From: Edaphobacter aggregans
Lineage (GTDB): Bacteria; Acidobacteriota; Terriglobia; Terriglobales; Acidobacteriaceae
DNA: 32,000 nt
Direction: 5' to 3'
Assembly: GCF_003945235.1 (NCBI RefSeq)
Contig: NZ_RSDW01000001.1
Coordinates: 5,400,001-5,432,000 of the forward strand
Shown here: piece after piece, positions 11,505 through 24,920 of the stretch
Numbering within the stretch: the stretch's first letter is position 1
How the letters are laid out: every line of letters begins with the position of its first letter
Notes under the pieces: model-generated
Databases searched by the model: none
Told to the model about the DNA's origin: nothing
What the model saw: only the letters and a program-made list of their open reading frames with translations
Made by a program: the position numbers and the translations under genes

Positions 11505-11505
11505 A

Positions 11506-14500
11506 ATGGAGATCCAAGACACGCTGCATCTCGATGCGGTAACAGCGCAGCATCAACTTCGGGACCGCCTCGTAGGGTTGGCGCGAAGCGAGTCTTTCGT
11601 CCGGTCCCCCGCAGTTTCTGCTGCGTGCGAACGGCTCTGGCTCGCCAATGGCGATGCCGCAGGGCTGCTGAGTGAGATATGGGTTGAATCTCTATTCCCT
11701 GCAAAATCTTCGGGTATCTCGCTGAAGACCACAGCAAACGTCGCGCCGTCGCTGCTTCGCCAGCTCGAGCGTTCGGCGGCTCTCCCTCTGGATCGCAAAC
11801 TCTATGACCATCAGGCCCGGACGATTCAACTCGAATACTCGAGCCGTGGCACAGATGAACGCCCTGCAATGATTGTCTCGGCTGGAACCGGCGCCGGCAA
11901 GACCGAAGCGTTTCTATTGCCGATGCTGAACGATCTCTTTTCAACGCCCCGGAAGGCAGGTGAGACCGGCGTCCGAGCGATCCTGCTCTACCCCTTGAAT
12001 GCGTTAGTTAACGATCAGATTGAGCGGCTCCACGGATGGCTCAAGGGGCAAGGCGAGATTACGGTCATTCACTATACGAGCGAGACCCCGCAGGATGAAC
12101 CAGATCCCAAGGCGGTATTCGATCCCAGCCGGCTGCGAACACGACTTGAGGCGCAAAGAAATCCTCCGGATATCTTGATCACAAACTACTCGATGCTTGA
12201 GTACCTCCTCTGTAGGCCTCAAGACAATCCACTCTTCGGAAAGGGTCTGCGGACGCTTGTCCTCGACGAGGCACACCTTTATAGCGGAAGTCTCGCAGCT
12301 GAAATTTCTCTTCTGTTGCGACGTGTCATGTTACGTTGCGGCGTCCCAAGCGAGCGAGTACTCCAAATTGCAACCTCCGCAACGCTTGGAGGCAGCTCTA
12401 GCGAGATCAAAGACTTTGCCGCCGGCATCTTTTCGAAGTCTCTCTCTCTGGTCCACCATATACCCGGCAAGACCTCCCGTCGGGAGCTGCCGAAGCAAGC
12501 GAGTCCCTCAGCTCAGTGCAGGCCGGAGGATATGCTGAAGCTCACCGAGGCGATTAAGTTGCGCCCCCTGGTAGATGCGAAGGGGCTGCGCACCGATCCG
12601 GAGCTATGCGATGAACTCCGCGCGCTCTCTCCACTATTCGTTGATTCTCGGGCGCATTTCGATTCGGACGAGAGAAGGCCTGCGAGCCTCCTGCACGCAC
12701 TGATCGGCCAAATGCCTCAGCTTCACACCTTAGACAACCTGTTCTGGAATCACCACGAAACTGGATCCGTCATGAAATTGCGCGAAGTCGCCCAAGAGAT
12801 TTGGCAGGCAAACTCTCAGCTCGCGATGCGAGCCACTGTGGCGCTACTCCAGTTGGGATCTCAGGCTCGATTGAATCTCCAGGAATTACCTCTGTTACCT
12901 CACAAGCTACACCTTCTCGCCCGCGCACCCGGGCCGATCAGCGTTTGCGTGAATCCCGACTGCAACGCGGCGCCTGAGGATCGAATCCCCGGTGGAGGTG
13001 CCGTCTCGCTAGACTCGGGGGGGGCCTGCAAGCATTGCGGGTCTGCAACCTTATCCTTGGCACGGTGTAATAGATGTGGCTTGGAGGCGGTCGCTGGAAG
13101 CCGGAGATCCGACAATACGCTACACCCTCGAGGCCAAACATTTGGCCGAGCTAGAAGAAATGCAAGCGAGATGTTTTTTCAGCTCGCTCCCGATGGAGAC
13201 GTCTTTTACAACATCGCGACACGTGATTGTGAGGAGGGCGGCCAGACGGTTCGCATGGCCGAAATTGTGCTTTGCCCGCATTGCGGGGCGGAGGATGATC
13301 CATTTCGTTCCCTAAGCTTGCTGGATGCCCTCGTTCTCCCTGTGGTAGCAGAGACTTTACACGCTTCCCTCCCAGTCATATCGGATCACGAACGCGCCTG
13401 GCTTCCGGCCGGCGGCAGGCGATTGCTTGCATTTAGCGACAGCCGTAACAGGGCGGCGCGGCTAGGCCCACTTTTAACGCGAAGCCATGAAATCCAGATG
13501 GGGCGCTCGTTGATCGATCAGGTGCTAGGCACAGCAACGCCGGACGCAGGTGTTCGGAGGCTTCGTCAGCGGAATATTCAACGAACATTGGAGGATCTCG
13601 CAAGCTCCGATCTAAGCGCCTCGTTGAGGGCAGAACTCGAATCCGATCTGAGGTCCCAACGAACTGAACTCGAAGCAATCGATTTGGGCATAACCATTGA
13701 AGAGTTGGGCAACCGTCTCAAGCACGCACCCGGACTGGCTCAGTTCTACTGCCGTCCTAGCGCAGTCACGCAACGGGCGGCCGAATGGACTCAAACTACA
13801 TGGGAGCGCAATAGAACGGAGATGATGGCGTGGGCGCCGACGATCCTCTCGAGAGAACTCGCCGTACCGGCATGGCAACGGTTGTCGCTTGAGTCGGCAG
13901 GTCTGGTTGAGATCGTATATCCGGGAATAAGCGATTGGAGGCCGCCGGTCGGCCTGGGCTTTACGCCCGCGATAGCAGACGGTCTCAAAGAACAATGGCC
14001 CGTCCTCATTGCAGCCTTACTGGACATCGCGAGAAGGGACCGTGCCGTGACTCTCGGCTCACGCGATCGAGATCATGTTGAATACTCGACGCCTCTTGGG
14101 AAGTGGATGAGCTTACGAACACGTTCCGACACATCTTTGATCTCCTTTGCAGGATCGGCGCAAGGCAGTCGATCGCGGAGGCCTGCGCTCGTCGTGAAGC
14201 TGCTAGAGCGCTTAGGTTGCGTCTCTCGAATTGACGAGCTTACCTCCCAGGTGTTGGAGGCTGTCTTTCAGCAGTTGATCGATGCTGGCCAACAAGGCCA
14301 GTTGCCTTGGATTGAAGTTGGTGATCGGCAAAGCAGGGACGGGATCTCACGAGCCTTCAGACTGAAATTTGATGGACTTCGTGTTCGGCGCCCGTTCAAT
14401 CTCTATCGCTGTGAAGTCACGGGAGAACTTTGGCCCAGGTCTCTCTTGGGGCTCTCGACGACATCTACTGATGGGCGATCTGACCTGAAACCGGTCACTC

Positions 14501-16620
14501 ACGCCGAAGCCGACCAAGATCCACGTTTTGCACGGACGCGTCAGGAAATCCGCTCATCTGAGATATTCCGGATCGGCATTTGGGCTGACGAGCATTCGGC
14601 ACAGCTTGATCCCAAGGAGAATCGCAGACTTCAGGATCTCTTCTCTAAAGGGGCGCGCAATATCCTCTCGGCTACGACAACGCTTGAAGTTGGTATTGAT
14701 ATTGGCGGGCTCTCTGCCGTTCTGCTGGGCAATGTGCCTCCTTCTCGGGCTAACTATCAACAACGCGGTGGTAGAGCTGGCCGACGTGCAGATGGGTCGT
14801 CACTAGTCTGCACATTCGCACCAAACCGCCCCTTCGACCAGGCAGTATTCAATCACTTCAGCCATTTCTTCAGCAAACAGTTGCGTAAGCCCACAGTTCG
14901 CCTTGGGCGTGAGCGCTTCGGGCGTAAGCATGCCCACTCGTTTCTCCTGGGAGAATTCTTTCGGCGCATATATCCAGCAGGAACGACCGTTACCACAATG
15001 AACGCCTTTAATCAGATGGGTTGGCTCTGCGGAGAACAACAAGTTCCAAGGCAGGTCGCCGACCAACCACGAGTCGAGCAACTCATGTCCCCAAACGCAC
15101 TCATTCTGGATGAATCGGCTTCCTGGTGGGTTAGCGGTGATGCCCCGTTTCTACAGTTCGATCACTTCCTCGGTTTTCTTCTTACCGGAGAGAATTCGGT
15201 CAAAGTTCAGCTCGAAGCCTTGCTGCAGGACACGCCGCTCAGCGATACCGTCAACCGCGTGATCTCAGACGCTCAGTCTTCGTTCCGATCCGCGTGTGTG
15301 GCCTGGTCGAAGGACTATCGGTCGTTGGTGAGTGCGTGGCAGTCGGGAATTGCGTCAGGTGTTCCGAATTCAACGCTGAACGCGATCCATTATCAAGCGA
15401 AGACCCTCTGGCAAACGACGACGATCTCGTCGCTAGCTGAGAGGCGGTTCCTCCCACGGTATGGATTTCCTCTGGACGTTCAAGTTTTGACCGCCTTGAC
15501 GGAAGGTCGCGAGGAACCCGTCCGTTTTCAGCGCGGTTCGCTTCTCGCGCTGAGCGAGTACGTCCCCGGGTCAGTCCTGCTCGGAGGAGGGCGCAGTTAC
15601 ACATCAAGAGGCATTCTGAACTTTTGGTCCGCGAGCGGGGACAAGAGTTTTGGCCTCAGGAAATTTCAGTATGCGTGTCAGTCCGGACATCGATGGACTG
15701 AGCTCCAGCCCCTACAAGGGGACCGGTGCCCAACTTGCAATGACTTTCTTCAGAGTTCTGGACGAGAACTGCTGATTCCCACATTCGGCTATTCCACGGC
15801 TCAATGGGACCCGCCGACCTGGGAAGGAGCGCAGGAGCGAATAGGTGAAACGCAAGTACTGGCGTCCGGTTTTCTGACAGCTGGAGCTTCGCCGATCATC
15901 ACGGATTTTGCAGGAATTGTCGGCATGTCTGCCGCCCCACACGAAAACGCGGAGTTGCTTGCAACCAACTCAGGTGAATTTGACGCCGGCTTTGCCATCT
16001 GCACTAAGTGTGGCTTTACCGACAGTATGAGATCAGGGGCGGACGACCTTCCCCGGAGCGGGGAGGGCGTCGATTTCAACGAACACCTACCGCTGCGCTC
16101 AAGACTTAACAGCAAGAAGTGCTGGAATAAAGGAGAAGAACCTGTACTTCGACATCAACATTTAGCAGCACAACACAACACGGACCTGTTGGAGCTTGAT
16201 CTCGAAGATGTACCCGGCCTCCGTACAAGGGTTATGGCAATGACCTTCGCTCACGCTGTTCACTTAGCTGCGGCAGAATTGCTCGAGGTGGACTCGCGCG
16301 AAATCAGTCTCTCAGTCCATGAGATCGATGACCAAACGTCGTGGAAGATCCAGCTCTACGACTCCGAGGCTGGTGGCTCGGGGCACATCCTTGAACTGGC
16401 TGAGAGGCATCATGAATTGCCTGCAGTGCTTAAGCTCGTACTTTTTCGAAATGCTCAACACAATGCAATATGTACTAGTGCGTGCATCCAATGTCTGCTA
16501 ACGCAAGGGAGTCAAGATGCATACGAGGCCGGGCTTCTTGATCGGCGCGCTCTTCTCGATCTGTTGATAACGACTGAATCCACAGATTGCGTAACCGAAT
16601 CGAGTTCCACTGCGTTTTAA
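11506..16620 (+). CDS. Giant DEAH-box SF2 helicase with Zn-ribbon insertions and a C-terminal DUF1998/MZB domain (DruE/DrmAB/MrfA-like)
   Basis: The ATG at 11506 is 1 nt after the upstream stop (TGA 11502-11504) and is preceded by a GGGGGGAG Shine-Dalgarno sequence; the listed 11452 is a TTG. Helicase motifs: Q-like LYDHQ, motif I SAGTGAGKTEA (from 11881), motif II LVLDEAH (DEAH 12265-12276), motif III ATSATL, motif IV-like LLAFSDSRNRAARL, EHSAQL, motif V ILSATTTLEVGIDIGGL, motif VI QQRGGRAGRR. Cys clusters: CVNPDCN..CKHCG..CNRCG and CPHCG. The C-terminus carries RFLPRYGFPLDV...ALSEYVPGS, CPTCN, CTKCG, LYDSEAGGSGH and CTSACIQCL, typical of DUF1998. Confidence 0.9.
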   Translation: MEIQDTLHLDAVTAQHQLRDRLVGLARSESFVRSPAVSAACERLWLANGDAAGLLSEIWVESLFPAKSSGISLKTTANVAPSLLRQLERSAALPLDRKLYDHQARTIQLEYSSRGTDERPAMIVSAGTGAGKTEAFLLPMLNDLFSTPRKAGETGVRAILLYPLNALVNDQIERLHGWLKGQGEITVIHYTSETPQDEPDPKAVFDPSRLRTRLEAQRNPPDILITNYSMLEYLLCRPQDNPLFGKGLRTLVLDEAHLYSGSLAAEISLLLRRVMLRCGVPSERVLQIATSATLGGSSSEIKDFAAGIFSKSLSLVHHIPGKTSRRELPKQASPSAQCRPEDMLKLTEAIKLRPLVDAKGLRTDPELCDELRALSPLFVDSRAHFDSDERRPASLLHALIGQMPQLHTLDNLFWNHHETGSVMKLREVAQEIWQANSQLAMRATVALLQLGSQARLNLQELPLLPHKLHLLARAPGPISVCVNPDCNAAPEDRIPGGGAVSLDSGGACKHCGSATLSLARCNRCGLEAVAGSRRSDNTLHPRGQTFGRARRNASEMFFQLAPDGDVFYNIATRDCEEGGQTVRMAEIVLCPHCGAEDDPFRSLSLLDALVLPVVAETLHASLPVISDHERAWLPAGGRRLLAFSDSRNRAARLGPLLTRSHEIQMGRSLIDQVLGTATPDAGVRRLRQRNIQRTLEDLASSDLSASLRAELESDLRSQRTELEAIDLGITIEELGNRLKHAPGLAQFYCRPSAVTQRAAEWTQTTWERNRTEMMAWAPTILSRELAVPAWQRLSLESAGLVEIVYPGISDWRPPVGLGFTPAIADGLKEQWPVLIAALLDIARRDRAVTLGSRDRDHVEYSTPLGKWMSLRTRSDTSLISFAGSAQGSRSRRPALVVKLLERLGCVSRIDELTSQVLEAVFQQLIDAGQQGQLPWIEVGDRQSRDGISRAFRLKFDGLRVRRPFNLYRCEVTGELWPRSLLGLSTTSTDGRSDLKPVTHAEADQDPRFARTRQEIRSSEIFRIGIWADEHSAQLDPKENRRLQDLFSKGARNILSATTTLEVGIDIGGLSAVLLGNVPPSRANYQQRGGRAGRRADGSSLVCTFAPNRPFDQAVFNHFSHFFSKQLRKPTVRLGRERFGRKHAHSFLLGEFFRRIYPAGTTVTTMNAFNQMGWLCGEQQVPRQVADQPRVEQLMSPNALILDESASWWVSGDAPFLQFDHFLGFLLTGENSVKVQLEALLQDTPLSDTVNRVISDAQSSFRSACVAWSKDYRSLVSAWQSGIASGVPNSTLNAIHYQAKTLWQTTTISSLAERRFLPRYGFPLDVQVLTALTEGREEPVRFQRGSLLALSEYVPGSVLLGGGRSYTSRGILNFWSASGDKSFGLRKFQYACQSGHRWTELQPLQGDRCPTCNDFLQSSGRELLIPTFGYSTAQWDPPTWEGAQERIGETQVLASGFLTAGASPIITDFAGIVGMSAAPHENAELLATNSGEFDAGFAICTKCGFTDSMRSGADDLPRSGEGVDFNEHLPLRSRLNSKKCWNKGEEPVLRHQHLAAQHNTDLLELDLEDVPGLRTRVMAMTFAHAVHLAAAELLEVDSREISLSVHEIDDQTSWKIQLYDSEAGGSGHILELAERHHELPAVLKLVLFRNAQHNAICTSACIQCLLTQGSQDAYEAGLLDRRALLDLLITTESTDCVTESSSTAF

Positions 16621-16648
16621 GCACGGGTCCGCACGAACGCGCATGCCG

Positions 16649-16664
16649 CCAGAATCGATTCTGG
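16649..16664. promoter_or_regulatory. Perfect 16-bp palindrome CCAGAATCGATTCTGG between the giant helicase gene and the RecD-like gene
   Basis: Read directly at 16649-16664, 29 nt after the helicase stop. No T-tract follows, so it is not a canonical intrinsic terminator. It could be a protein-binding site or a short hairpin. Confidence 0.25.
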
Positions 16665-16769
16665 ATTGGAGCTAAATCGCTGATGCACTCATCTGGGAGG
16701 CAACACCGACCGACTTCACATTTGTGATCATGTTGATCTGTAAGGTTGTCGTTTACAGTAATCCCAGCG

Positions 16770-18275
16770 ATGAAAGATCCAGACTCGAATGGCAGCCGCC
16801 TGACCAATCTCGCGAGACGCTGGCGCAAGCGACTCACCCAGGCGCAACCGGAAGCAGATTCTCAAGAGACGTTCTTCTCGCCACCACCACGGGCCGAGGG
16901 GACTAGCGTCGTGGTAAGAGCAATCGTACCGATGCCAGCTGTACCTACCCCGATAGAAGAATCCTCAACCGACCCTGAGCTTACGACGGACCAGGCAGAG
17001 GCGCTCCGTAAGATTGAAGCCGCCTACGAGCCAGGCGAGTTCTACCTACTTACGGGGCACGCTGGCTCAGGCAAGACGTATCTCATGCAGCGGCTAACGA
17101 AGAACATGCTGGCAAAGAAGCGCCGGATCGTTCTCACTGCACCCACGCACAAGGCGGTCGCGGTCCTCGCGCGCAAACTGGCCGAGGCCAACATCAAGGA
17201 CGTACCATGCCGCACGATCCATAGCATCCTCAGCCTAACGCCGAAACCTCGGACGGATCGGCTCGTTTTCGAAAGAGAGCGCGACGCAGAACCCGTCACG
17301 GCCGATGTCGTAGTTGTCGACGAATGCAGTATGGTTTCGGAGGATTTATACCGCCATATAAAGCGGCACCTGCCCAATGCCTTCGTCCTATTTCTTGGGG
17401 ATCCCGCTCAGCTGCCTCCAGTAGGAGAAGTAGAAAGCCAGACGTTCGCAACAAAGAATCGGTCGCACCTCACGACGATTGTGCGGCAAGCGGCTGGGAA
17501 CCCGATCCTGGCTGCCGCAGGCATCATCCGCGCCAGTCAGGGAGGACCGGCGGATATGTCGTGGTGTGCGGCGGCTGCGCTTGAAACCAAGCAGGGCATT
17601 TTCCTGCCAGCCGATGCAGCGCACCGGTGGATGAAGAAGGCCTTCACGTCGCCGGAGTTCGACGCCGACCCGGATAGCTTCCGCTACCTCGCATGGACAA
17701 ATTCGCGTGTTCATCAGGTGAACGAGTTAATCCGGGCTTGGCGGTACGGCGCAAATATTCCGACGCCGTTCATGCCTGGCGAAAGTGCGCTGTTCCGCGC
17801 TCCCGTTGTAATCGACGAGTCCATCATCTTCGCCAACAATCAGGAAGCCAGAGTTATAGCGATTGAACGATCGACGTTCACTCACGAGATTCAGGAGGCT
17901 GATGGCGTTCCTCAATGGACAGCCTCGATCCCATCCTGGAAGATCACACTTCGCGATGTCGAAGGCATCGACAAAGCGGTTCATATGCACGCTGATGAGC
18001 GCGAGTTTCAGAGGGTAATTGAGCGGATAAAGGATGAAGCGGCTGAGTCACGTCTACGATGGAAGCACCTTCATGGGTTCCAGCAGAGTCTGGCACAGCT
18101 GCAATCTGTCTATTGTCTGACGGTTCATCGGAGTCAGGGCTCAACATTCCAGACTGCGTTTCTCGACCTACCTGACATACGCCGGCGCGAAAAAACCAAC
18201 CTATTGGAAGCGCAACAAATGCTATATGTGGCTGTGACCCGGCCCTCGCAGCGCCTGATAGTGGTTGGGGAGTGA
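16770..18275 (+). CDS. SF1B RecD/Dda/Pif1-like DNA helicase (AAA_30 plus UvrD_C-type)
   Basis: Motifs: Walker A TGHAGSGKTY, TAPTHKAV, Walker B VVVDECSMV, LFLGDPAQLPPV, TIVRQ, LTVHRSQGSTF, LYVAVTRPSQRLIVVG. I prefer the ATG at 16770 (MKDPDSNG...) to the listed TTG at 16746. The N-terminal 90 aa or so are low-complexity. Confidence 0.85.
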   Translation: MKDPDSNGSRLTNLARRWRKRLTQAQPEADSQETFFSPPPRAEGTSVVVRAIVPMPAVPTPIEESSTDPELTTDQAEALRKIEAAYEPGEFYLLTGHAGSGKTYLMQRLTKNMLAKKRRIVLTAPTHKAVAVLARKLAEANIKDVPCRTIHSILSLTPKPRTDRLVFERERDAEPVTADVVVVDECSMVSEDLYRHIKRHLPNAFVLFLGDPAQLPPVGEVESQTFATKNRSHLTTIVRQAAGNPILAAAGIIRASQGGPADMSWCAAAALETKQGIFLPADAAHRWMKKAFTSPEFDADPDSFRYLAWTNSRVHQVNELIRAWRYGANIPTPFMPGESALFRAPVVIDESIIFANNQEARVIAIERSTFTHEIQEADGVPQWTASIPSWKITLRDVEGIDKAVHMHADEREFQRVIERIKDEAAESRLRWKHLHGFQQSLAQLQSVYCLTVHRSQGSTFQTAFLDLPDIRRREKTNLLEAQQMLYVAVTRPSQRLIVVGE

Positions 18276-18307: not shown

Positions 18308-19813
18308 CTACATGTAATACCTGAATGATGACAGCGGAGTGGTCGAATCATCCTCTCCATACTCAGCCATGATGCCCCCAATCTTCCTTGAAAAGGCGAG
18401 CGTCACCGGTTGTCCTCCTGACATACTGGCGGTATTCCAGTTCATTCGCGCCAATCCGAGAATGTCTTTCGCTACCTGTTCGAGGTCAATTATCCGGTCG
18501 CTTCGTAACTCCACGGGCGCAGGTATATGTGGGCCAGGATAGGTGCCGATTGACGGCATATATCCCGTTGTAAAGAGGAAGGATTTCGATCCGTTCACCA
18601 GACAAAGAGTCCCGCGGTTTGGGGGGTATGAACCAAATCGCAGCAGCCGAAATTGCGTTGGCATGATGTTTATGAGCTCCACAACAGGAACCGAAGTTAG
18701 TGCATGACGAAAGCCTTCACTCTCGGCTTCACTAAAGGCCGACGTCTTGTGAAAAACCATTCGTACAGGATCACCACCCGTTCGATCACGATATTCCTCC
18801 AAGACGTTTGTAGCCAAAGCAGCCGCTTGGATGTCAGTCAAATGTACGTTACGCCCTTGGTCTTCGCTCCAGTCTACGTTTCCTCCACGCAGTGCGAACC
18901 CTTCCCCTTTGCTCGAAAAGGCCTGCGCGATGCTCGATTGAACGAGATGTCGTTGAGTTGTACGTAAGTGATGAAAACTAACTCCTACGAAACATGTCTC
19001 TGGGCCATCGAGATTGAGACGCCACGGGATGCCGCCAGCCTTGTAATAAAGGGCTACAGTGCTGTTCCATGCTCTGATATTAGGCGCCTGGTTAGATTCC
19101 TGGTCCTCTACCATGTGTCGCGTAGCGATCTGAACTGGCATTCGAAACCGCATTGCGCGAGCTTTGAGAGCCCTTCTGAAGTCGCGCTGAAGAAGATCCT
19201 CAGGCTGCTCCTCAACAGGCTGGCTATCAAAAGAGAGGGATAGTTGGGGATCACTCTGCTTCTTCTTGAGAGCAGCTACCGCTGCCTTGTCTTCCTTGGT
19301 CAGAGTCTCATTCAGCGACCAGCAACGAGCGATCAACTCGTCTGGCAGACAACACAAAACTACGTCCGGCTTCTTTGTCTCCAGAGAAGAAAGTTGTCGG
19401 ACCCCTTCTGCATACAGCTCCAAAACCGCTTCGAATCGGGTCTTCGGATCACTCAGGTTGAGACAGTTCGCAAGTTCGCCCGATTCACCACCCAGACTTT
19501 TGACGAATCTCGTATTCTGTATCAGCTTGGCGCGGAAGATGTCTTGGAATCCCGGGAAGGCTGGGTATTGAGTCATGTCAGATGAGGCTTCGGGTAGGAT
19601 TTGTTGGCAACGTTCAAGCCATCTCTGAGTGGCATCAATCATCATGTCCGGGCCTACTAGTCCAACTGTGATGGTTTCATTTCGCCCGGCACCGAAGCGC
19701 AGGTCGAACGGGCCGGCCTCCCGAAGGCCCTGTCGCATATCAGAAAATTCGCCGGGGCCGCCAAATTCAAGAAGCGGCTCCGGTAACTGACGAAGATCAA
19801 TTCGAATCGGCAT
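18308..19813 (-). CDS. Short prokaryotic Argonaute (MID plus PIWI only), predicted catalytically inactive
   Basis: End-to-end pattern match to short pAgos as I recall them (e.g. the SPARTA Ago): N-terminus LPEPLLEFGG...GLREAGPFDL, ALKARAMRFRMPVQIA (MID), ALYYKAGGIPWRL, and C-terminus GQPVTLAFSRKIGGIMAEY...SSFRYYM. The PIWI catalytic positions read GVSFHH and FHKTS instead of G.DV.H and HRDG. The ATG at 19813 (MPIRIDL) overlaps the upstream gene's stop by 17 nt; the listed 19834 is a TTG. Confidence 0.9.
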   Translation of the reverse strand: MPIRIDLRQLPEPLLEFGGPGEFSDMRQGLREAGPFDLRFGAGRNETITVGLVGPDMMIDATQRWLERCQQILPEASSDMTQYPAFPGFQDIFRAKLIQNTRFVKSLGGESGELANCLNLSDPKTRFEAVLELYAEGVRQLSSLETKKPDVVLCCLPDELIARCWSLNETLTKEDKAAVAALKKKQSDPQLSLSFDSQPVEEQPEDLLQRDFRRALKARAMRFRMPVQIATRHMVEDQESNQAPNIRAWNSTVALYYKAGGIPWRLNLDGPETCFVGVSFHHLRTTQRHLVQSSIAQAFSSKGEGFALRGGNVDWSEDQGRNVHLTDIQAAALATNVLEEYRDRTGGDPVRMVFHKTSAFSEAESEGFRHALTSVPVVELINIMPTQFRLLRFGSYPPNRGTLCLVNGSKSFLFTTGYMPSIGTYPGPHIPAPVELRSDRIIDLEQVAKDILGLARMNWNTASMSGGQPVTLAFSRKIGGIMAEYGEDDSTTPLSSFRYYM

Positions 19814-22574
19814 TATCTTCCTCTTCCGCTTCAATTCGATAGGTCTCTGCGAGTTCGGCTATTTCATTGACGAGTTCTTCGTCGATGTCGACTTCGCTCA
19901 CATCCGTATCCTGTTCTTCGATTAGGCTGGAATCCGTTAGAACTACAGTCGGGAACTTCGCAGCAAGCGTTATCCGAGAATCAGACTGTCCTAACGACTT
20001 CGAAATTGCCCGAGTTTCGCCTGGTAGAAGATCAGAAACTCGAGGCTCTGGAGCAAAATTAAACATTCCTGTCTCTCCGCGCGCTAGAACCCAGAGCCAA
20101 AATGAGATGTCATTGAACACCGCATTGTTGTAATCCCGCGAAGCCCGTTGGGTTGAAAGTTTGTTGACTCTTTCAGACGCAAGCAATCCCTTCAATCCAT
20201 TAAAGGTGAACACATAGCCAGGCTCGATGATCAGAACCCACACGTCGCCGTAATATTCAAACCTATAGCTGAAGGACTGATGCTCCCAGTAGAGCACTTT
20301 GTCTGTTCGATTTGAGGTTCTGGCCTTAACAACTGTTCGAGTCGCCTTTCGCAATCGAGCTTGATAAGTAATTACACGAGGGCCGTCATCTTCTTTCGGG
20401 AAGTAGGCTCGCTTGCGTTTCTTATCCACTAATAATCCGGCCCGATAAAGATGCCCTTCGAGGCTCATGTTCAGAAGCTGAACCAATTGACGCGAACCAT
20501 CTAAATGCCCAGAAAGCTCATTTAGTGATAAGGTTTCTGTGTCTCCGCCGTCGAGCAATCGAGACAACGGGTTTCTTCGATCTTCGAGATCGTAGAAGCT
20601 GAAGAACCTCCCATCTGAAAGGAGAAAAGGTGGGATCCATTGCTCGCCCGCCTCCTGCCAGACCTCGGAAAGACTGCGAACAGAAGTCCCGGCATGATAG
20701 ACCTGACTCGGCAACTTCGTAACTTCCAGTACGTTGGCAGCATAGCGACTTGTAGTCGCTACGAGCGGAGAAGCTGTGCCTGTTGACTCGTCTACTGCCT
20801 CGGGTCTGGAGAAGATTTCGATCTCAAATGCTGTGTTATCGTTGTTTGGACCAAATCGAACATCTCCACCATTGTTTCTGACGTCTCGTAGAACATCGGA
20901 AAGTCCAGAACCTCTCTTATCCATCTCGCCACTGCCGTAGAACAGATCAGCGAGCACGGGGTTGCGGTAGCCCTTGATCCCGCGGCGGCCACGACGAATT
21001 TCAGTTTCAATTGATCCGGTCTCAAACCTATGTCGAACTTCCTCGACCAAGCCTCCTGGATTGGAGATCTTGATACTGGACGACGTAACGACGATCTCAA
21101 TATTTCCGGCCATGCGATAGTCGCGATGTACGAGTGCATTGACGATAACCTCCTTCAATGCGAGAGGCGGGTAAGGGACTACGCTTTCGGATACTTCCCC
21201 TTTGAGCCTGAAGGACCGATTAAAGCTGCTTAGGAATTGGGTGATCTGCTCGAACTGTTCCCACAAGTGGCCAGAGATGGTTCCCTCAAAACTCTCCTTA
21301 TCCGACAGGTGGGATTTGTCGTCGGCTGACTGACGAATGCGCTTCAACCATTCAGGACTACCAATGGCCTCAATGCGGGTTATAGCGGAAGTGATATGAC
21401 TGTCGGGCTTTCTTCCAAACAACAAAACACCGGCATTGGTCAGCTGCTCCACGGTCGGGCTATTTGCGCGGACAGCCAAGTTCAAGTTGAATAGCTGCTC
21501 CGTTACCCATGCCCGCTCAACCTGAGGCGGAACGCTCAGTTTGAGCGCCTCTGCGTATTGAAGAATACGGGTATGAAGGGTAGACCAGTCCAGTTCGCTC
21601 AGTTCTACCGACGAAACGTCCATGTCGAACGTCGGCGATTGATGGTGTGCACTTGCAGGTCCTGGAGATGAAAATGACAGGTCGGCATCCAGATTGAGTG
21701 CCCACAGGTCGCGCGCAAATAACTCGTCAAATCCGTCGATCTCGATCGTGCTGAAGTTGTCTCCGATTGTCTTTGCAAGCTCATCCACCAACGGAGGAAG
21801 TTCCTGGCTTGACTCGCCAGTGCGCCGGCACCAGAAAATCCCGTGACGATAGAAGTGAGCGCTCTCCGCATTATCGATGAGCAAATGACGCATTACGGAC
21901 GGTTCGGCACCGCGGTAGCCGACCACGATAAGCGGTCGGTCCCGCAATAATGGAAGAAGCATCTCGATCAACCTTGGATCGAGTTTTTGAACCTCGTCAA
22001 TGATGTTCTTGTCTGTGTAGTGATCCACTGAGCCGTGGAGATATACCAGCTGCGGATATTGAGGATCGGTTGTGAATTTCGTGTAATCCGAAGCCGTCTG
22101 GATTGCATTGATGTAGTGAGGACGGCCTTTCTGAGCTCGTGTATCGAGCAGCAGGGAGTCAAAGTTCGTCGTGAGCACCGTGTGAACAAGCTGGAGATGT
22201 AAGAACTCTGCAAGTTTGTCATATCCCGGACTGGGTTCAATCCCGGGCGAGAGAAGCTTGCGAAAGAACTCTGCTCGCGCGTGGCGCGGTTGCAAAAGGT
22301 GTTGAACAACTGAGGGGTAGTTGTCTACGAGCGCCGCGTTCTGATCGAACCACGATTGCTGCTCCACCCAGGGCAGCCAGTCACTTCTCTGGAGTCTCGG
22401 ATCTTCTTCCGATCTTCCGTGCTGATTAGCATAAGCCCAACGAGCGGCCCTTTCGACCACTCCTGCGGCCGCAGGAATGCCAGAACGAACGGAAGCACCT
22501 GCTCCGAGGAGTAGCACTGGCTTGGGTCGCGATTTAAGTAAGGAATAAATTCTACCGATGCTTCCGACCTGCAT
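19797..22574 (-). CDS. SIR2 / AlbA_2-HATPase_c_4 ('RecG-like', Schlafen-related) / APAZ three-module partner of the short pAgo (925 aa)
   Basis: SIR2_2-type motifs: LLLGAGASVRSGIP, TTNFDSLL, YLHGSV, IVVGYRGAEPSV. Middle module: GVLLFGRKP..., PPLALKEVIVNALVHRDYRMAGNIEIVVTSSSIKISNPGGL, YRNPVLADLFYGSGEMDKRGSGLSDV. The C-terminal 310 aa or so parallel the APAZ of TIR-APAZ as I recall it (LEVTKLPSQVYHA, PPFLLSDGRFFSFYDL, WVLIIEPGYVFTFNG, acidic tail). The gene overlaps the pAgo gene. Confidence 0.85.
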   Translation of the reverse strand: MQVGSIGRIYSLLKSRPKPVLLLGAGASVRSGIPAAAGVVERAARWAYANQHGRSEEDPRLQRSDWLPWVEQQSWFDQNAALVDNYPSVVQHLLQPRHARAEFFRKLLSPGIEPSPGYDKLAEFLHLQLVHTVLTTNFDSLLLDTRAQKGRPHYINAIQTASDYTKFTTDPQYPQLVYLHGSVDHYTDKNIIDEVQKLDPRLIEMLLPLLRDRPLIVVGYRGAEPSVMRHLLIDNAESAHFYRHGIFWCRRTGESSQELPPLVDELAKTIGDNFSTIEIDGFDELFARDLWALNLDADLSFSSPGPASAHHQSPTFDMDVSSVELSELDWSTLHTRILQYAEALKLSVPPQVERAWVTEQLFNLNLAVRANSPTVEQLTNAGVLLFGRKPDSHITSAITRIEAIGSPEWLKRIRQSADDKSHLSDKESFEGTISGHLWEQFEQITQFLSSFNRSFRLKGEVSESVVPYPPLALKEVIVNALVHRDYRMAGNIEIVVTSSSIKISNPGGLVEEVRHRFETGSIETEIRRGRRGIKGYRNPVLADLFYGSGEMDKRGSGLSDVLRDVRNNGGDVRFGPNNDNTAFEIEIFSRPEAVDESTGTASPLVATTSRYAANVLEVTKLPSQVYHAGTSVRSLSEVWQEAGEQWIPPFLLSDGRFFSFYDLEDRRNPLSRLLDGGDTETLSLNELSGHLDGSRQLVQLLNMSLEGHLYRAGLLVDKKRKRAYFPKEDDGPRVITYQARLRKATRTVVKARTSNRTDKVLYWEHQSFSYRFEYYGDVWVLIIEPGYVFTFNGLKGLLASERVNKLSTQRASRDYNNAVFNDISFWLWVLARGETGMFNFAPEPRVSDLLPGETRAISKSLGQSDSRITLAAKFPTVVLTDSSLIEEQDTDVSEVDIDEELVNEIAELAETYRIEAEEEDNADSN

Positions 22575-22760: not shown

Positions 22761-23873
22761 TTAGCCTTCGAACAGGGGTGATTGTGATCCTTCTTGGTCT
22801 CTAAAATTACTCAAACCGACCCCGACTAAACGAAAGCGCCGTGCTGCCCCGACATCGACACGCTCTCGCAATGAAAGTGCGATCTCAGCCAGTTCCTCGC
22901 ACGATAGGGGAGGAACGATAGGTGTGTGGCTACGGGTAAGGATGTTGAATTCGCTTGTCTTCAGTTTGAGAACTACGGTCCGCGCCACGCGCGACTCCTT
23001 GCGGGACGCAGACCAGACCTTTTCTGCGAGTCGCCGGATGAGGTCTTCCATCTCCGATAACGGAATGTCCCGCTCGAAAGTATCTTCTGCGGAGATCGAC
23101 TTAGTTGGCCTGTCGGGAATGACTCTGTTGTGATCGATGCCGCGGGCGAGTTCATAGAGGCGCAATCCATAGCGGCCAAACCGTGTTTCGAGGGCGGCCA
23201 GATCGAAGGCATGCAGGTCGCCTACTGTCTGAATGCCGATCTGCTTTAGCCGAGTTTCGGTTACTCTTCCGACTCCGGGAATGCGTCCGACAGGGAGTGG
23301 GGGAAGGAACGTATCCAGGTCCGCCGGCTGAATGACGAAAAGACCATCGGGCTTCCGCCAGTCGGAGGCGATCTTTGCGAGGAATTTATTCGGCGCGACG
23401 CCCGCTGACGCGGTCAACTGAAGCTCTTCGCGGATTTGTTGGCGGATGGTTTTGGCAACTCTGGTTGCCGTAGGTAAGTGCGTTTTATTCTTTGTGACGT
23501 CTAGATACGCCTCGTCGAGCGAAAGAGGTTCGACGAGGTCGGTGTGGCGCTGAAAAATATCTCGTACTGCGCGTGACACAGCCTTGTAACGCGTGAAATC
23601 GGGAGGAAGGAAGATCGCTTCGGGACACAAGCGTTCGGCAGTAACCGCCGGCATTGCGGAACGTACACCGAAGCGTCTCGCCTCATAAGACGCGGCGCAT
23701 ACAACAGACCGTTTTCCGCGCCACGCCACGACAACTGGTCTGCCGCGCAGCGTCGGGTCATCTCGCTGTTCAACCGAGGCGTAGAACGCGTCCATATCGA
23801 TATGAACGATCTTGCGAAACGTCACCTCGCCAGAGCTATCGGCTTTGGGACCAGGAGATCTGTCATCGTTCAT
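22761..23873 (-). CDS. dinB: DNA polymerase IV (Y-family translesion polymerase)
   Basis: Motifs: IVHIDMDAFYASVEQRDDPTLRGRPVVV, SLDEAYLDVT, ASAGVAPNKFLAKIASD, and an HhH segment IPGVGRVTETRL. I prefer the ATG at 23873 (MNDDRSPG..., 370 aa) to the listed GTG at 23957, whose extra 28 aa are hydrophobic and atypical. Confidence 0.9.
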   Translation of the reverse strand: MNDDRSPGPKADSSGEVTFRKIVHIDMDAFYASVEQRDDPTLRGRPVVVAWRGKRSVVCAASYEARRFGVRSAMPAVTAERLCPEAIFLPPDFTRYKAVSRAVRDIFQRHTDLVEPLSLDEAYLDVTKNKTHLPTATRVAKTIRQQIREELQLTASAGVAPNKFLAKIASDWRKPDGLFVIQPADLDTFLPPLPVGRIPGVGRVTETRLKQIGIQTVGDLHAFDLAALETRFGRYGLRLYELARGIDHNRVIPDRPTKSISAEDTFERDIPLSEMEDLIRRLAEKVWSASRKESRVARTVVLKLKTSEFNILTRSHTPIVPPLSCEELAEIALSLRERVDVGAARRFRLVGVGLSNFRDQEGSQSPLFEG

Positions 23874-24030
23874 GCGCTTGATTGTAAGCGAAGAGGCGGC
23901 GAAAACTGCAACAGGATCGGACACATAAAATGCACTGGGTAGCAAAAACTTGATCACCCATGTGCGTGCGCCCGTCTCCCGTGCAAGGTGGCCTCGTTTG
24001 CCAAGAGCTGTACCCTGCCTTGGAAAGGTG

Positions 24031-24290: not shown

Positions 24291-24920
24291 TCATGCGCTG
24301 TTCAGTGGGAGCTGCATATTGTGCGCTTCGAGCAGCTGGATGTTCATTTGCTCGGACGGAATGATGCGCAGTAAATGGAGTGGAGGGCGTACAGTAGGAG
24401 CAAACCACTCTGCGTAGTCACGCGGCTCCAATATCACCGGCTGGCGATCATGGATCTCCGCCATGGCCTCATTCGGCTCGCTCGTGATGACGGAGACGGT
24501 AGGAACATAATCTCCCGCCTTGTTCTTCCACATGCTCCAGGTGCCCGCCAATGCAAAGGGTTCACGCCCCGGAATGGTTATCTCATATTTGGGATTGTTC
24601 TTCTTATGCAGCCGTTTCCACTCAAAGAAGCTGTCGGCCGGCACAATACAGCGCCTCTCCTCAAAGGAGGTTTTCCAAAGACCCGTCTTCAGAATGCCGT
24701 CAGACCGCGTATTGAAGGTAAAGCGCTGGGGAAAGGTGAAGCCCCAATACATCAGCTCAACGCTGCGATCACCTTCGTCGTTTGTGAATACGACTGGCTG
24801 AAAACTGCCGGGGGTGATGTCATCCTCGGCTGAAAAGTTGAGGTCGTCGAGGTTGGCCCTTACCTGAAAAGCTTCCGCAATCCTTTGTTTATCCGATCTC
24901 CGTCGGTAGCGTCCACACAT
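24291..24920 (-). CDS. yedK: SOS-response-associated peptidase (SRAP/DUF159; abasic-site DNA-protein crosslink protein, YedK/HMCES family)
   Basis: A 209-aa ORF starting MCGRYRRR (the invariant Cys2 after Met). It contains the family-typical stretches WGF...FNTRSD and PADSFFEW. The family is assigned from motif memory. Confidence 0.85.
   Translation of the reverse strand: MCGRYRRRSDKQRIAEAFQVRANLDDLNFSAEDDITPGSFQPVVFTNDEGDRSVELMYWGFTFPQRFTFNTRSDGILKTGLWKTSFEERRCIVPADSFFEWKRLHKKNNPKYEITIPGREPFALAGTWSMWKNKAGDYVPTVSVITSEPNEAMAEIHDRQPVILEPRDYAEWFAPTVRPPLHLLRIIPSEQMNIQLLEAHNMQLPLNSA

What the first reader, a model, noticed from the sequence alone, without database searches (positions are those of the whole stretch)
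19797..22574. Short-pAgo partner with a three-module architecture: SIR2, an inserted AlbA_2/HATPase_c_4 (Schlafen-related, 'RecG-like') module, and APAZ
As I recall, the characterised SIR2-APAZ partners of short pAgos (SPARSA-type) are about 580-600 aa: SIR2 directly followed by APAZ. This protein is 925 aa.

Between an apparently NADase-competent SIR2 (TTNFD Asn and LHGS His present) and the APAZ region (nt 20753-19797 or so) lies an insert of about 270 aa (nt 21617-20805 or so). The insert carries hallmark strings of the AlbA_2/HATPase_c_4 family: VNALVHRDYRMAGNIEIVV..IKISNPGGL and YRNPVLADLFYGSGEMDKRGSGL.

I recall APAZ proteins annotated 'RecG/DHS-like' being listed in surveys of the poorly studied S2B short-pAgo clade, but I know of no experimental description of what this module does.

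It could act as a second nucleic-acid sensor, as a regulator gating the NADase, or as a Schlafen-like RNase effector.
Basis: partly seen in the sequence, partly recalled or inferred. Interest (0 to 1): 0.8.

Follow-up and report, generated by a model that had tools for sequence, protein, structure and literature searches.

The report
SIR2–GHKL ATPase–APAZ partner of short Argonaute
This gene encodes the effector subunit of a two-gene bacterial Argonaute defence cassette in which an NAD-destroying SIR2 enzyme is joined to the Argonaute-binding domain through an ATPase-like switch module (not a Schlafen nuclease); the family is already catalogued and widespread, but nobody has tested it experimentally.

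Summary
It is followed by a 501-aa short pAgo (18308-19813) that overlaps it by 17 nt.

- **SIR2 (residues 1-296):** it keeps the catalytic Asn and His of SPARSA. N137 and H180 align to GsSir2 N142 and H186 and are invariant in 44/44 relatives.
- **APAZ and pAgo:** both are closest to SPARHA/SPARDA, which places the system in clade S2B.
- **Middle module (residues ~316-590):** it is a GHKL-type ATPase (Pfam HATPase_c_4) with its N-terminal subdomain. It does not contain the AlbA_2/Schlafen domain. It starts exactly where that domain ends in free-standing relatives, and the Schlafen nuclease motif is absent.

The architecture is not new. PADLOC has a full-length model for it, Ryazansky 2018 lists it as og_40, at least 259 species-representative genomes encode a relative, and 80 of 81 loci carry a pAgo directly downstream. 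I found no functional study of this subtype.

A May 2026 preprint shows that the same GHKL domain in Schlafen-pAgos binds ATP through an E-x3-N motif and drives tetramerisation. That motif is invariant here (E475/N479).

Most likely mechanism (inferred): guide-RNA-directed recognition of invader DNA, together with ATP-dependent GHKL oligomerisation, assembles SIR2 into an active NADase, causing abortive infection.

The parts
19797..22574 (-). Complete ORF (925 aa plus stop) for the SIR2-GHKL-APAZ partner protein of the short pAgo
   Evidence: ORF list. Full-length match to PADLOC PDLC02402 Aga_SIR2-PNTD1-PNTD2: residues 7-919 against model positions 3-872 of 876, 1199.5 bits. AF2 model with mean pLDDT 79.7.
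21687..22574 (-). SIR2 NADase domain (residues 1-296), with the GAGAS cofactor loop at 24-28, catalytic N137 (nt 22164-22166) and catalytic H180 (nt 22035-22037)
   Evidence: Pfam SIR2_2. phmmer alignment to the GsSir2 chains 8jkz/8in8 places N137 on N142 and H180 on H186. Those two residues are the catalytic residues according to PMC11452484. N137, D139 and H180 are invariant in 44/44 relatives. Codons verified.
21630..21686 (-). Variable, low-confidence linker (residues 297-315)
   Evidence: pLDDT is below 50 at residues 299-303 and 308-310. No column is invariant and median identity is 16%.
21261..21629 (-). N-terminal subdomain of the GHKL module (residues 316-438), including the conserved AG(Y)LLF motif and a variable insertion of about 25 aa at roughly 405-430
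   Evidence: It aligns to residues ~142-300 of free-standing Schlatpase proteins, directly after their AlbA_2 domain. Foldseek matches the whole module to 3lmm_A with E 3.3e-11 and TMq 0.65. Pfam finds nothing here.
20805..21260 (-). Bergerat-fold (GHKL, Pfam HATPase_c_4) half of the module (residues 439-590). Motifs: N-box E475-x3-N479...H483-R484-D-Y; G1-like N505-P-G507-G508-L; lid R537-N538-P; G2-like K553-x-G555-S-G557-L
   Evidence: Pfam PF13749. Profile hit to 3lmm with E 5.7e-9. Foldseek hits to histidine kinases and to PDK1/2/3. It is the most conserved segment of the protein, with 21% of columns invariant. The motifs are shared with free-standing relatives. Codons verified.
20055..20804 (-). 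APAZ domain (residues 591-840; equivalent to N-L1-L2 of long pAgos), which binds the pAgo
   Evidence: phmmer: 9om4_A SPARHA HNH-APAZ 3.6e-24, 9jsb_D DREN-APAZ 2e-11. Foldseek: 9om4_A TM 0.79 normalised to the target, rmsd 4.5. PADLOC Aga_REase-PNTD1-PNTD2 5.3e-43.
19800..19934 (-). Acidic C-terminal tail (residues 881-925, net charge -18)
   Evidence: Charge count. The last 45 aa are acidic in all 44 relatives (median -13.5). This is analogous to the acidic C-tail of DREN-APAZ, which occupies the duplex groove in auto-inhibited SPARDA.
18308..19813 (-). Short pAgo (MID-PIWI, 501 aa from ATG 19813), overlapping the partner gene by 17 nt, with a GAGGA Shine-Dalgarno-like motif upstream
   Evidence: PADLOC pAgo_I PDLC02376 2.1e-146. 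PDB bit scores: SPARHA pAgo 9om4_B 228, SPARDA 162-168, SPARTA 152-157, SPARSA 68. The junction sequence is shown. Gene calls of 501 and 494 aa with the same 17-nt overlap occur in relatives. The mechanical ORF listing starts at TTG 19834.

Best explanation
The ORF is the effector and adaptor subunit of a clade-S2B short prokaryotic Argonaute defence system. It is encoded as a self-contained, translationally coupled two-gene cassette: the partner gene first, then the pAgo.

What the sequence and structure comparisons show:
- The partner is built as SIR2 NADase, then a GHKL-type ATPase module (an N-terminal subdomain plus a Bergerat fold; Pfam HATPase_c_4), then APAZ, then an acidic tail.
- The GHKL module is the part of the widespread 'Schlatpase' supradomain (Schlafen/AlbA_2 + GHKL) that remains once the Schlafen nuclease is removed.
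- SIR2 sits exactly where the Schlafen domain sits in those proteins.

The mechanism below is inferred by analogy with SPARSA, SPARDA, SPARHA and the Schlafen-pAgo RzAgo:
1. APAZ and the MID-PIWI pAgo form a heterodimer that loads a short RNA guide and scans DNA.
2. In the resting state the acidic tail and the domain packing keep the complex inactive.
3. Pairing with invader DNA switches the pAgo sensor loops and promotes pAgo-pAgo assembly.
4. The GHKL module binds ATP-Mg through E475/N479 and the glycine boxes, and it dimerises or tetramerises through its ATP lid.
5. The two events together bring the SIR2 domains into the oligomer that positions H180 next to N137.
6. NAD+ is hydrolysed and the infected cell dies or goes dormant (abortive infection).

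On this reading the module is a regulatory, ATP-dependent assembly switch. It is not a second nuclease.

The confidence of 0.6 combines about 0.95 for the identity and anatomy of the system with about 0.5 for the ATP-gated assembly mechanism.
For: Identity and anatomy:
- Domain hits and a full-length PADLOC model.
- A confident AF2 model of the whole protein (pLDDT 79.7) and of the module alone (pLDDT 88, pTM 0.87).
- APAZ and pAgo are closest to SPARHA and SPARDA.
- 80 of 81 related loci carry a pAgo directly downstream on the same strand. The one exception is a contig end.
- The same cassette, with the same 17-nt overlap, sits in unrelated flanks next to an integrase in an 88%-identical relative.

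SIR2 competence:
- N137 and H180 align to the catalytic N142 and H186 of GsSir2.
- Both are invariant in 44/44 relatives.

Nature of the module:
- The module profile aligns to residues ~142-395 of free-standing proteins. In those proteins AlbA_2 occupies ~11-136 and HATPase_c_4 ~297-395.
- Foldseek matches it to 3lmm, and then to histidine kinases and pyruvate dehydrogenase kinases.
- The Bergerat half is the most conserved segment of the protein, with 21% invariant columns, including E475, N479, H483, R484, G507, G508, R537, N538, K553, G555 and G557.

Precedent for function:
- In RzAgo the PF13749 domain binds ATP specifically and hydrolyses it.
- E314 and N318 coordinate the gamma-phosphate and Mg2+.
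- ATP binding drives tetramerisation mainly through the GHKL domain and its ATP lid.
- The RzAgo fold is likened to PDK4. The module here also hits PDK structures.
- SPARSA needs SIR2 tetramerisation to align H186.
- SPARDA uses an acidic C-tail for auto-inhibition. The tail here has a net charge of -18.
Against: - No biochemical step was tested here.
- The canonical GHKL G1-box aspartate, which contacts adenine, is Asn or Ser here (N505). ATP binding therefore rests on homology to RzAgo, not on a textbook motif set.
- The mapping of E475/N479 onto RzAgo E314/N318 rests on the shared E-x3-N...HRDY motif and on a PADLOC profile hit (PDLC02394, 1.3e-9). I could not obtain the RzAgo sequence to align it directly.
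- Schlafen-pAgo-sized proteins are not among the 150 best hits of the module profile, so the two GHKL modules are not close relatives and their regulation could differ.
- In RzAgo the guide induces inhibitory filaments and the target dissolves them. S2B nuclease systems do the opposite: the target induces filaments. Which logic applies here is unknown.
- The AF2 inter-domain arrangement is uncertain (pTM 0.59).
- No heterodimer model could be made.
Confidence: 0.6

Rival explanations
1. The GHKL-like module is a nucleotide-independent scaffold. It would be a rigid spacer, or an auto-inhibitory or oligomerisation domain, that has lost ATP binding (a pseudo-ATPase) and only sets the geometry between SIR2 and APAZ.
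For: The G1-box Asp is replaced by Asn or Ser. A family-specific basic insertion in the lid region (residues ~524-535) could be a protein or nucleic-acid interface rather than an ATP lid. SPARSA, SPARTA, SPARDA and SPARHA all work without any ATPase.
Against: The residues expected to bind Mg-ATP (E475, N479, G507/G508, K553, G555, G557) are invariant across relatives that are only 43-91% identical. This half is more conserved than the catalytic SIR2 domain. The same [S/N]PGG variant of G1 occurs throughout the PF13749 family, and a member of that family binds and hydrolyses ATP.
Confidence: 0.2
2. One reading: the module is a Schlafen-like RNase effector, or a second nucleic-acid sensor.
For: [quoted passage not shown] Free-standing relatives of the module do carry an AlbA_2/Schlafen domain, and often an HTH as well. 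Some GHKL proteins, such as MutL and MORC, act on DNA (general knowledge).
Against: There is no PF04326 hit in this protein, in residues 314-470 alone, or in any of 120 homologues. The alignment shows the module starting exactly after the AlbA_2 domain of its relatives, and the E-x4-(D/E)-x-K nuclease motif has no counterpart (the motif is defined in PMC13056530). No Schlafen structure appears among the top 50 Foldseek hits. The C-terminal HTH of the free-standing proteins is also missing, with APAZ in its place.
Confidence: 0.07
3. The GHKL module is itself a second effector or an enzymatic partner of SIR2. It might deplete ATP alongside NAD+, or act as a kinase or nucleotidyl-transferase on a SIR2 product or on a protein.
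For: The putative catalytic residues are very strongly conserved. PADLOC names a sister model 'SIR2-Kinase-PNTD1-PNTD2'. The chassis tolerates further stacked effector domains (PNP, protease, metallophosphatase, TIR), which shows that multi-effector designs exist in this family.
Against: RzAgo hydrolyses ATP only as part of a conformational switch, and its E314A hydrolysis-dead mutant still oligomerises. There is no phospho-acceptor (HisKA-like) domain and no substrate-binding domain. I found no SIR2-less module-APAZ variants. The apparent ones are truncated ORF calls that begin inside the end of SIR2.
Confidence: 0.1

Closest known systems
SPARSA (short pAgo with SIR2-APAZ, clades S1A/S1B; e.g. 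Geobacter sulfurreducens Sir2/Ago, PDB 8in8, 8jkz, 8y80)
   Same: Both have the pAgo-associated type of SIR2 domain (PADLOC PDLC02419 3e-39; phmmer 1.5e-8). The catalytic Asn and His and the GAGxS cofactor loop align. Both have an APAZ at the C-terminus and a short pAgo in the same operon. The expected output is NAD+ depletion after RNA-guided DNA recognition.
   Different: SPARSA partners are 584-587 aa, with SIR2 directly followed by APAZ. Here a GHKL module of about 275 aa lies between them. The APAZ and pAgo here belong to S2B, not S1: the pAgo scores 68 bits against SPARSA pAgo and 228 bits against SPARHA pAgo.
SPARHA and SPARDA (clade S2B short pAgo with HNH-APAZ or DREN-APAZ; PDB 9om4, 9jsb, 9qbl, 9qbp)
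   Same: These are the closest solved relatives of both the APAZ (3.6e-24; TM 0.79) and the pAgo (1.8e-66), and they share the operon order. The MID pocket strings (RxxxK...Q, YYK, C-terminal YYM) are shared with the SPARHA pAgo. The acidic C-terminal tail resembles that of SPARDA.
   Different: Their effector is a nuclease attached directly to APAZ. Here the effector is a SIR2 NADase attached through a GHKL module.
SLFN-pAgo (e.g. Runella zeae RzAgo; long-B pAgo with the Schlatpase supradomain; bioRxiv 10.64898/2026.05.29.728809)
   Same: In both, a PF13749 GHKL ATPase module with its N-terminal subdomain lies between an N-terminal effector and the Argonaute N-L1-L2-like region. The E-x3-N motif that binds Mg-ATP in RzAgo is invariant here. 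PADLOC's 1121-position pAgo model hits residues 353-520 (1.3e-9).
   Different: The effector there is a Schlafen tRNase, and here it is SIR2. RzAgo is a single-chain long-B pAgo with a PAZ domain, whereas this system is a split S2B short pAgo plus APAZ. The GHKL modules are not each other's closest relatives. The preprint does not mention SIR2 at all.
Free-standing Schlatpase(-HTH) proteins (AlbA_2 + HATPase_c_4, COG2865 type; e.g. DIP2311, PDB 3lmm)
   Same: The whole 281-aa module aligns to their residues ~142-395 and shares all the GHKL motifs.
   Different: They have an N-terminal AlbA_2/Schlafen nuclease domain, and usually a C-terminal winged HTH. Here those positions are taken by SIR2 and APAZ. 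This family also has two insertions (residues ~405-430 and ~524-535).

Membership tests
Short pAgo system, clade S2B | The partner protein ends in an APAZ domain related to those of S2B partners | tested here: met
   phmmer 3.6e-24 to 9om4_A and 2e-11 to 9jsb_D. Foldseek TM 0.79 normalised to 9om4_A. PADLOC Aga_REase-PNTD1-PNTD2 5.3e-43.
Short pAgo system, clade S2B | A short (MID-PIWI only) pAgo is encoded directly downstream in the same operon | tested here: met
   A 501-aa pAgo overlaps the partner gene by 17 nt. PADLOC pAgo_I 2.1e-146. The arrangement is conserved in 80 of 81 related loci.
Short pAgo system, clade S2B | The pAgo groups with S2B rather than with S1A, S1B or S2A | tested here: met
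   This is a proxy by bit score against solved references: SPARHA 228, SPARDA 162-168, SPARTA 152-157, SPARSA 68. No phylogenetic tree was built.
Short pAgo system, clade S2B | The PIWI domain lacks the DEDX catalytic tetrad | not tested
   No reference alignment to an active long-A pAgo was made. Koopal 2022 states that this holds for all short pAgos.
Short pAgo system, clade S2B | The partner and the pAgo form a physical heterodimer that is activated by guide RNA and target DNA | not testable with these tools
   No multimer prediction or experiment is available.
SPARSA (S1A/S1B SIR2-APAZ systems) | A SIR2 domain with the catalytic Asn and His (GsSir2 N142, H186) | tested here: met
   N137 and H180 align to N142 and H186. 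They are invariant in 44/44 relatives. Their catalytic role is taken from PMC11452484.
SPARSA (S1A/S1B SIR2-APAZ systems) | SIR2 is directly fused to APAZ (a partner of about 580 aa) or to APAZ-pAgo | tested here: not met
   The protein is 925 aa, with a folded GHKL module of about 275 aa between SIR2 and APAZ. SPARSA chains are 584-587 aa.
SPARSA (S1A/S1B SIR2-APAZ systems) | The pAgo and APAZ belong to clade S1 | tested here: not met
   SPARSA pAgo is the weakest short-pAgo match (7.1e-18, against 1.8e-66 for SPARHA).
PADLOC family PDLC02402 (Aga_SIR2-PNTD1-PNTD2, Class I); equals Ryazansky 2018 og_40 | A match to the family profile from end to end | tested here: met
   Residues 7-919 match model positions 3-872 of 876, 1199.5 bits, E=0. 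The og_40 description is. The equivalence of the two catalogues is my inference.
Schlatpase supradomain (SLFN/AlbA_2 + GHKL PF13749) | A PF13749 GHKL domain with the E-x3-N motif | tested here: met
   PF13749 5.9e-8 and 6.5e-9. E475 and N479 are invariant. The motif column is shared with free-standing members.
Schlatpase supradomain (SLFN/AlbA_2 + GHKL PF13749) | An AlbA_2/Schlafen domain (PF04326) with the E-x4-(D/E)-x-K nuclease motif | tested here: not met
   There is no PF04326 hit, even at E<=10, and none in 120 homologues. The module aligns only to the post-AlbA_2 part of its relatives.
Schlatpase supradomain (SLFN/AlbA_2 + GHKL PF13749) | ATP binding and hydrolysis, and ATP-driven tetramerisation | not testable with these tools
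   Shown only for RzAgo.
GHKL ATPase superfamily | Bergerat alpha/beta sandwich fold | tested here: met
   Foldseek of the module model: histidine kinases (4kp4, CpxA, HK853) and PDK1/2/3 at E 6e-5 to 3e-3, probability 0.9-1.0.
GHKL ATPase superfamily | The full canonical motif set (N-box E-x3-N, G1 D-x-G-x-G, G2 G-x-x-G-x-G) | tested here: inconclusive
   The N-box is present and invariant, and a G2-like K-x-G-S-G-L is invariant. The G1 Asp is replaced by Asn or Ser (N505: 38 N and 6 S of 44).

The most novel reading that the evidence does not exclude
The PF13749 GHKL module may be a portable, ATP-dependent oligomerisation switch that Argonaute systems have recruited more than once to control different effectors: a Schlafen tRNase in long-B SLFN-pAgos and a SIR2 NADase here. 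In this family further stacked domains (PNP, protease, metallophosphatase, TIR) also occur.

On this reading the S2B SIR2-GHKL-APAZ system is a two-key NADase. It fires only when the pAgo has found invader DNA and the GHKL module is ATP-loaded. Immune NAD+ depletion would then be coupled to the cell's energy state, and ATP hydrolysis could provide a reset or timer. SPARSA, SPARTA, SPARDA and SPARHA all lack such a control layer.
Probability: 0.45. Interest if true: 0.65.

Novelty: new member of a known kind. Interest (0 to 1): 0.5.

Why it matters
Short pAgo systems are being developed as programmable nucleic-acid detectors, and they are models for how immune effectors are switched on by oligomerisation. 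Every characterised short pAgo system couples the sensor directly to its effector.

This widespread but untested subtype puts a conserved ATPase-like switch between sensor and effector. If the switch binds ATP as its Schlafen-pAgo relative does, it would add a metabolic input to Argonaute immunity.

It would also show that SIR2 and Schlafen effectors are interchangeable heads on the same GHKL switch.

The analysis corrects the 'Schlafen' label attached to this orthogroup in the survey literature. It also gives precise residues to mutate: N137, H180, E475, N479 and the deletion of 316-590.

Tried and rejected
- **AlbA_2/Schlafen in the insert: rejected.** Pfam found nothing in the whole protein or in residues 314-470 alone, even at E<=10. 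Profile and alignment mapping confirmed the absence.
- **SIR2-less 'module-APAZ' variants: rejected.** These would have implied that the module is an effector by itself. Five of the six candidates start inside the C-terminal end of SIR2 ('...IDGFDEL...') or at a non-Met residue, so they are truncated ORF calls. Only P0126 is ambiguous.
- **Exact-sequence lookup of the window protein in the assembly index:** not on record.
- **Sigma-70 promoter and intrinsic terminator scan around the operon:** no promoter-like sites, and terminator-like sites no more frequent than in shuffles. Uninformative.
- **Plasmid carriage:** one distant (29% identity) Mesorhizobium plasmid hit. The family is essentially chromosomal.
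- **Origin of the PADLOC 'PNTD/Kinase' names:** literature searches led nowhere.
- **Koopal 2023 Trends Cell Biol review:** not held in the library.
- **Direct alignment to RzAgo, to map E314/N318:** not possible, because the sequence could not be obtained with the tools.
- **Functional study of this subtype:** literature searches found none. Subscription-only papers are not covered.

Full report
**1. Observation**

The ORF listing shows a 925-aa ORF at 19797-22574 on the minus strand. A 508-aa ORF (18308-19834) overlaps its end.

- Pfam finds SIR2_2 (residues 132-232, 1.5e-9) and HATPase_c_4 (residues 491-570, 5.9e-8), both above their gathering thresholds.
- The C-terminal third is an APAZ. 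phmmer gives 3.6e-24 to the HNH-APAZ chain of SPARHA (9om4_A, residues 593-898) and 2e-11 to DREN-APAZ of SPARDA.
- Foldseek of the AF2 model (mean pLDDT 79.7) gives a TM-score of 0.79, normalised to 9om4_A.
- Solved SPARSA partners are 584-587 aa, so the extra length is real.

**2. The partner pAgo and the operon**

The downstream ORF is a short pAgo (PADLOC pAgo_I, 2.1e-146). Against solved structures it scores 228 bits with the SPARHA pAgo, 162-168 with SPARDA pAgos, 152-157 with SPARTA pAgos and only 68 with the SPARSA pAgo.

Its most likely start is ATG 19813. A GAGGA motif precedes it, and it overlaps the partner's stop by 17 nt. Gene calls in two relatives show the same 17-nt overlap, with pAgos of 494 and 501 aa.

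The MID-pocket strings (RxxxK...Q, YYK, C-terminal YYM) are shared with the RNA-guided SPARHA pAgo.

**3. How common it is**

- A search of 5.8 billion proteins returned 727 hits at E<=1e-5 among the candidates scored. The best 120 are all about 790-1050 aa and carry only SIR2_2 and HATPase_c_4 annotations. They come from Acidobacteriota, Alphaproteobacteria, Bacteroidota, Cyanobacteria and Poribacteria.
- The closest hits are 91% and 88% identical. The 88% hit is from a Terracidiphilus MAG, so the window probably comes from an Acidobacteriaceae genome.
- A scan of one genome per GTDB species found 259 genomes that encode a relative.
- In 80 of the 81 loci fetched, a pAgo homologue (43-60% identity) lies directly downstream on the same strand. 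The single exception is a contig that ends 11 nt after the partner gene.
- In the Terracidiphilus relative the same two-gene cassette sits next to a phage-type integrase and an HTH_17 gene, in flanks unrelated to this window. The pair is therefore a self-contained mobile unit.
- In the window, the GC content of the operon (0.50-0.52) is below that of the flanks (0.55-0.58).

**4. It is already catalogued**

- PADLOC-DB holds a full-length profile for exactly this architecture. PDLC02402 'Aga_SIR2-PNTD1-PNTD2' matches residues 7-919 to model positions 3-872 of 876, at 1199.5 bits.
- A sister model is called 'Aga_SIR2-Kinase-PNTD1-PNTD2'.
- Ryazansky et al. [quoted passage not shown]
- Koopal et al. 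2022 describe S2B operons with 'DHS-like-APAZ'.
- The SPARDA preprint notes 'a subgroup of SIR2 effectors' in S2B.
- The SPARHA paper still speaks of 'additional uncharacterized effectors' in S2B.
- Six literature searches found no functional study of this subtype. Papers available only by subscription are not covered.

**5. SIR2**

The SIR2 domain is of the pAgo-associated type (PADLOC PDLC02419 3e-39; generic SIR2 models score only about 1e-2). The phmmer alignment to Geobacter Sir2 (8jkz/8in8) places N137 on N142, H180 on H186 and the GAGAS loop on GAGTS. N142 and H186 are the catalytic residues, and H186 is brought into position only when SIR2 tetramerises (PMC11452484). N137, D139 and H180 are invariant in all 44 aligned relatives. 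The domain therefore looks catalytically competent.

**6. The middle module**

- PF04326 (AlbA_2/Schlafen) is not detected in the protein, nor in residues 314-470 alone at E<=10, nor in any of the 120 homologues.
- Modelled alone, residues 312-592 form one compact unit (pLDDT 88, pTM 0.87).
- Foldseek matches the whole unit to 3lmm, a structural-genomics protein of the AlbA_2-HATPase_c_4 class (3.3e-11, TMq 0.65, 287 columns). Histidine kinases and pyruvate dehydrogenase kinases come next. No Schlafen structure is in the top 50.
- A profile of the module, searched against 1.84 billion representatives, finds 7640 proteins at E<=1e-3.
- In free-standing relatives of 390-500 aa, the profile (positions ~4-280) aligns to residues ~142-395.
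- Pfam places SLFN_AlbA_2 at ~11-136 and HATPase_c_4 at ~297-395 in those same proteins.
- A MAFFT alignment shows the boundary directly. The pAgo-partner module begins exactly where the AlbA_2 domain ends. That domain carries the E-x4-E-x-K nuclease motif defined in PMC13056530.
- From that point on the module shares every motif with its relatives: A-L-K/R-E-x3-N-A-x-V-H-R-D-Y, [S/N]-P-G-G, R-N-P and K/R-x-G-S/T-G.

So the module is the GHKL ATPase part of the supradomain, with its N-terminal subdomain. It lacks both the Schlafen nuclease and the C-terminal HTH. SIR2 occupies the position of the Schlafen domain, and APAZ occupies the position of the HTH.

**7. Conservation**

The Bergerat-fold half (residues 439-590) is the most conserved segment of the whole protein. 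21% of its columns are invariant, against 11% for SIR2, 8% for APAZ, 6% for the module's N-subdomain and 0% for the linker and the tail.

- The invariant residues include E475, N479, H483, R484, G507, G508, R537, N538, D543, K553, G555, S556 and G557.
- The segment between the G1-like and G2-like boxes has low pLDDT at residues 548-555, as expected of a mobile ATP lid.
- One departure from the textbook GHKL pattern is that the G1 aspartate is Asn or Ser. This is true of the whole PF13749 family.
- Relative to free-standing proteins, this family has a basic insertion (residues ~524-535) in the lid region and a variable insertion at ~405-430.

**8. Functional precedent**

A preprint of 30 May 2026 (Kuzmenko et al., bioRxiv 10.64898/2026.05.29.728809) studies long-B 'SLFN-pAgos'. 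These carry the 'Schlatpase' supradomain (AlbA_2 at residues 1-142, plus a PF13749 GHKL domain, up to residue 442) in front of the pAgo core.

- RzAgo binds ATP specifically and hydrolyses it.
- E314 and N318 coordinate the gamma-phosphate and Mg2+.
- E314A abolishes hydrolysis but not binding.
- ATP or ATP-gamma-S drives dimer and tetramer formation, mainly through the GHKL domain and its lid.
- Removing the Schlafen domain alone has little effect on tetramerisation.
- The fold resembles PDK4.
- The preprint never mentions SIR2.

PADLOC's 1121-position pAgo model (PDLC02394), presumably this family, hits residues 353-520 of the window protein at 1.3e-9. SLFN-pAgo-sized proteins are absent from the 150 best hits of the module profile. 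The two GHKL modules are therefore homologous but not close relatives.

**9. Mechanism**

Shown by sequence and structure comparison:
- the domain order;
- an intact SIR2 catalytic dyad;
- an intact GHKL N-box and glycine boxes;
- an S2B-type APAZ and pAgo;
- strict operon linkage;
- an acidic C-tail (net charge -18 over 45 aa; family median -13.5).

Inferred by analogy:
- The APAZ-pAgo heterodimer loads an RNA guide and recognises invader DNA.
- The acidic tail helps auto-inhibition, as in SPARDA.
- Target binding flips the pAgo sensor loops and promotes pAgo-pAgo contacts.
- ATP-loaded GHKL modules dimerise or tetramerise.
- Together these events assemble SIR2 into the oligomer that aligns H180, as in SPARSA.
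- NAD+ is depleted.

I put about 0.95 on the identity of the system and about 0.5 on the ATP-gated assembly mechanism. The rival readings are:
- a nucleotide-independent scaffold (0.2);
- an independent second enzymatic effector (0.1);

**10. Variants and context**

The same chassis occurs with an extra N-terminal domain. All these variants match PDLC02402 end to end:
- PNP_UDP_1 (P0122, 1221 aa);
- trypsin-like protease (P0158, 1096 aa);
- metallophosphatase (P0138, 1267 aa);
- TIR_2 (P0078, 1053 aa).

In the window the cassette lies in a defence island. Convergent to it are a RecD-like helicase gene and a DruE-like helicase gene, and a 1600-aa ORF that has only an RNA polymerase alpha CTD hit. 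The island sits between SOS and mutagenesis genes: imuA/imuB/dnaE2 on one side, and dinB and an SRAP gene on the other.

**11. Verdict**

The 'AlbA_2/Schlafen' label is wrong, and the RNase idea that depends on it falls with it. The architecture is a catalogued, widespread family that has not been tested experimentally, so this instance is a new member of a known kind.

What remains interesting is the mechanistic question: is this an ATP-gated, Argonaute-controlled SIR2 NADase? The question is now directly testable, and the residues to mutate are named above. Interest: 0.5.

Noticed in passing
window 6702-18275 (+): A possible non-canonical Druantia-like module. It consists of a 1600-aa ORF (6702-11504) whose only hit is an RNA polymerase alpha CTD domain (residues 80-134) and which has no PADLOC hit. 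This ORF overlaps the start of a 1722-aa DruE-like helicase (11452-16620; PADLOC DruE3 1.8e-202). A 509-aa RecD-like helicase follows (16746-18275; PDC-S68, PDC-M16A and type IV RecD hits).
   Followed up: partly
window 520-6276 (+), 22761-23957 (-) and 24291-24920 (-): The defence island is flanked by SOS and mutagenesis genes. On one side is an imuA-like (RecA fold), imuB-like (IMS) and dnaE2 (Pol III alpha) cassette. On the other are dinB (Pol IV) and an SRAP/YedK-type gene.
   Followed up: partly
L082 8341-14802 (Terracidiphilus sp. MAG, GCA_049579105.1): An 88%-identical copy of the two-gene cassette (925 + 501 aa, same 17-nt overlap) sits between a phage-type integrase and an HTH_17 excisionase-like gene, in flanks unrelated to the window. 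The cassette therefore appears to move as a unit on an integrative element.
   Followed up: partly
proteins P0122, P0158, P0138, P0078, P0175 (relatives, not in the window): There are variants of the SIR2-GHKL-APAZ chassis with an additional N-terminal domain: PNP_UDP_1 phosphorylase/nucleosidase, trypsin-like protease, calcineurin-like metallophosphatase, TIR_2, or a PDC-M54A-like region. These are stacked dual-effector designs under pAgo control.
   Followed up: partly
window 20928-21002 (-), residues ~524-548 of the partner: A family-specific basic insertion (E-I-R-R-G-R-R-G-I-K-G) lies in the presumed ATP-lid segment and is absent from free-standing Schlatpase relatives. It could contact SIR2, nucleic acid or the acidic C-terminal tail.
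   Followed up: no
proteins P0221 and P0230 (relatives, not in the window): DUF4062-containing proteins of about 870-885 aa that carry two HATPase_c_4 copies are among the nearest non-pAgo relatives of the module. Their architecture appears uncharacterised.
   Followed up: no
window 30382-31803 (-): An ordinary HAMP-HisKA-HATPase_c sensor histidine kinase, unrelated to the finding. It is a useful contrast: the window holds a canonical GHKL kinase as well as the PF13749-type module.
   Followed up: no
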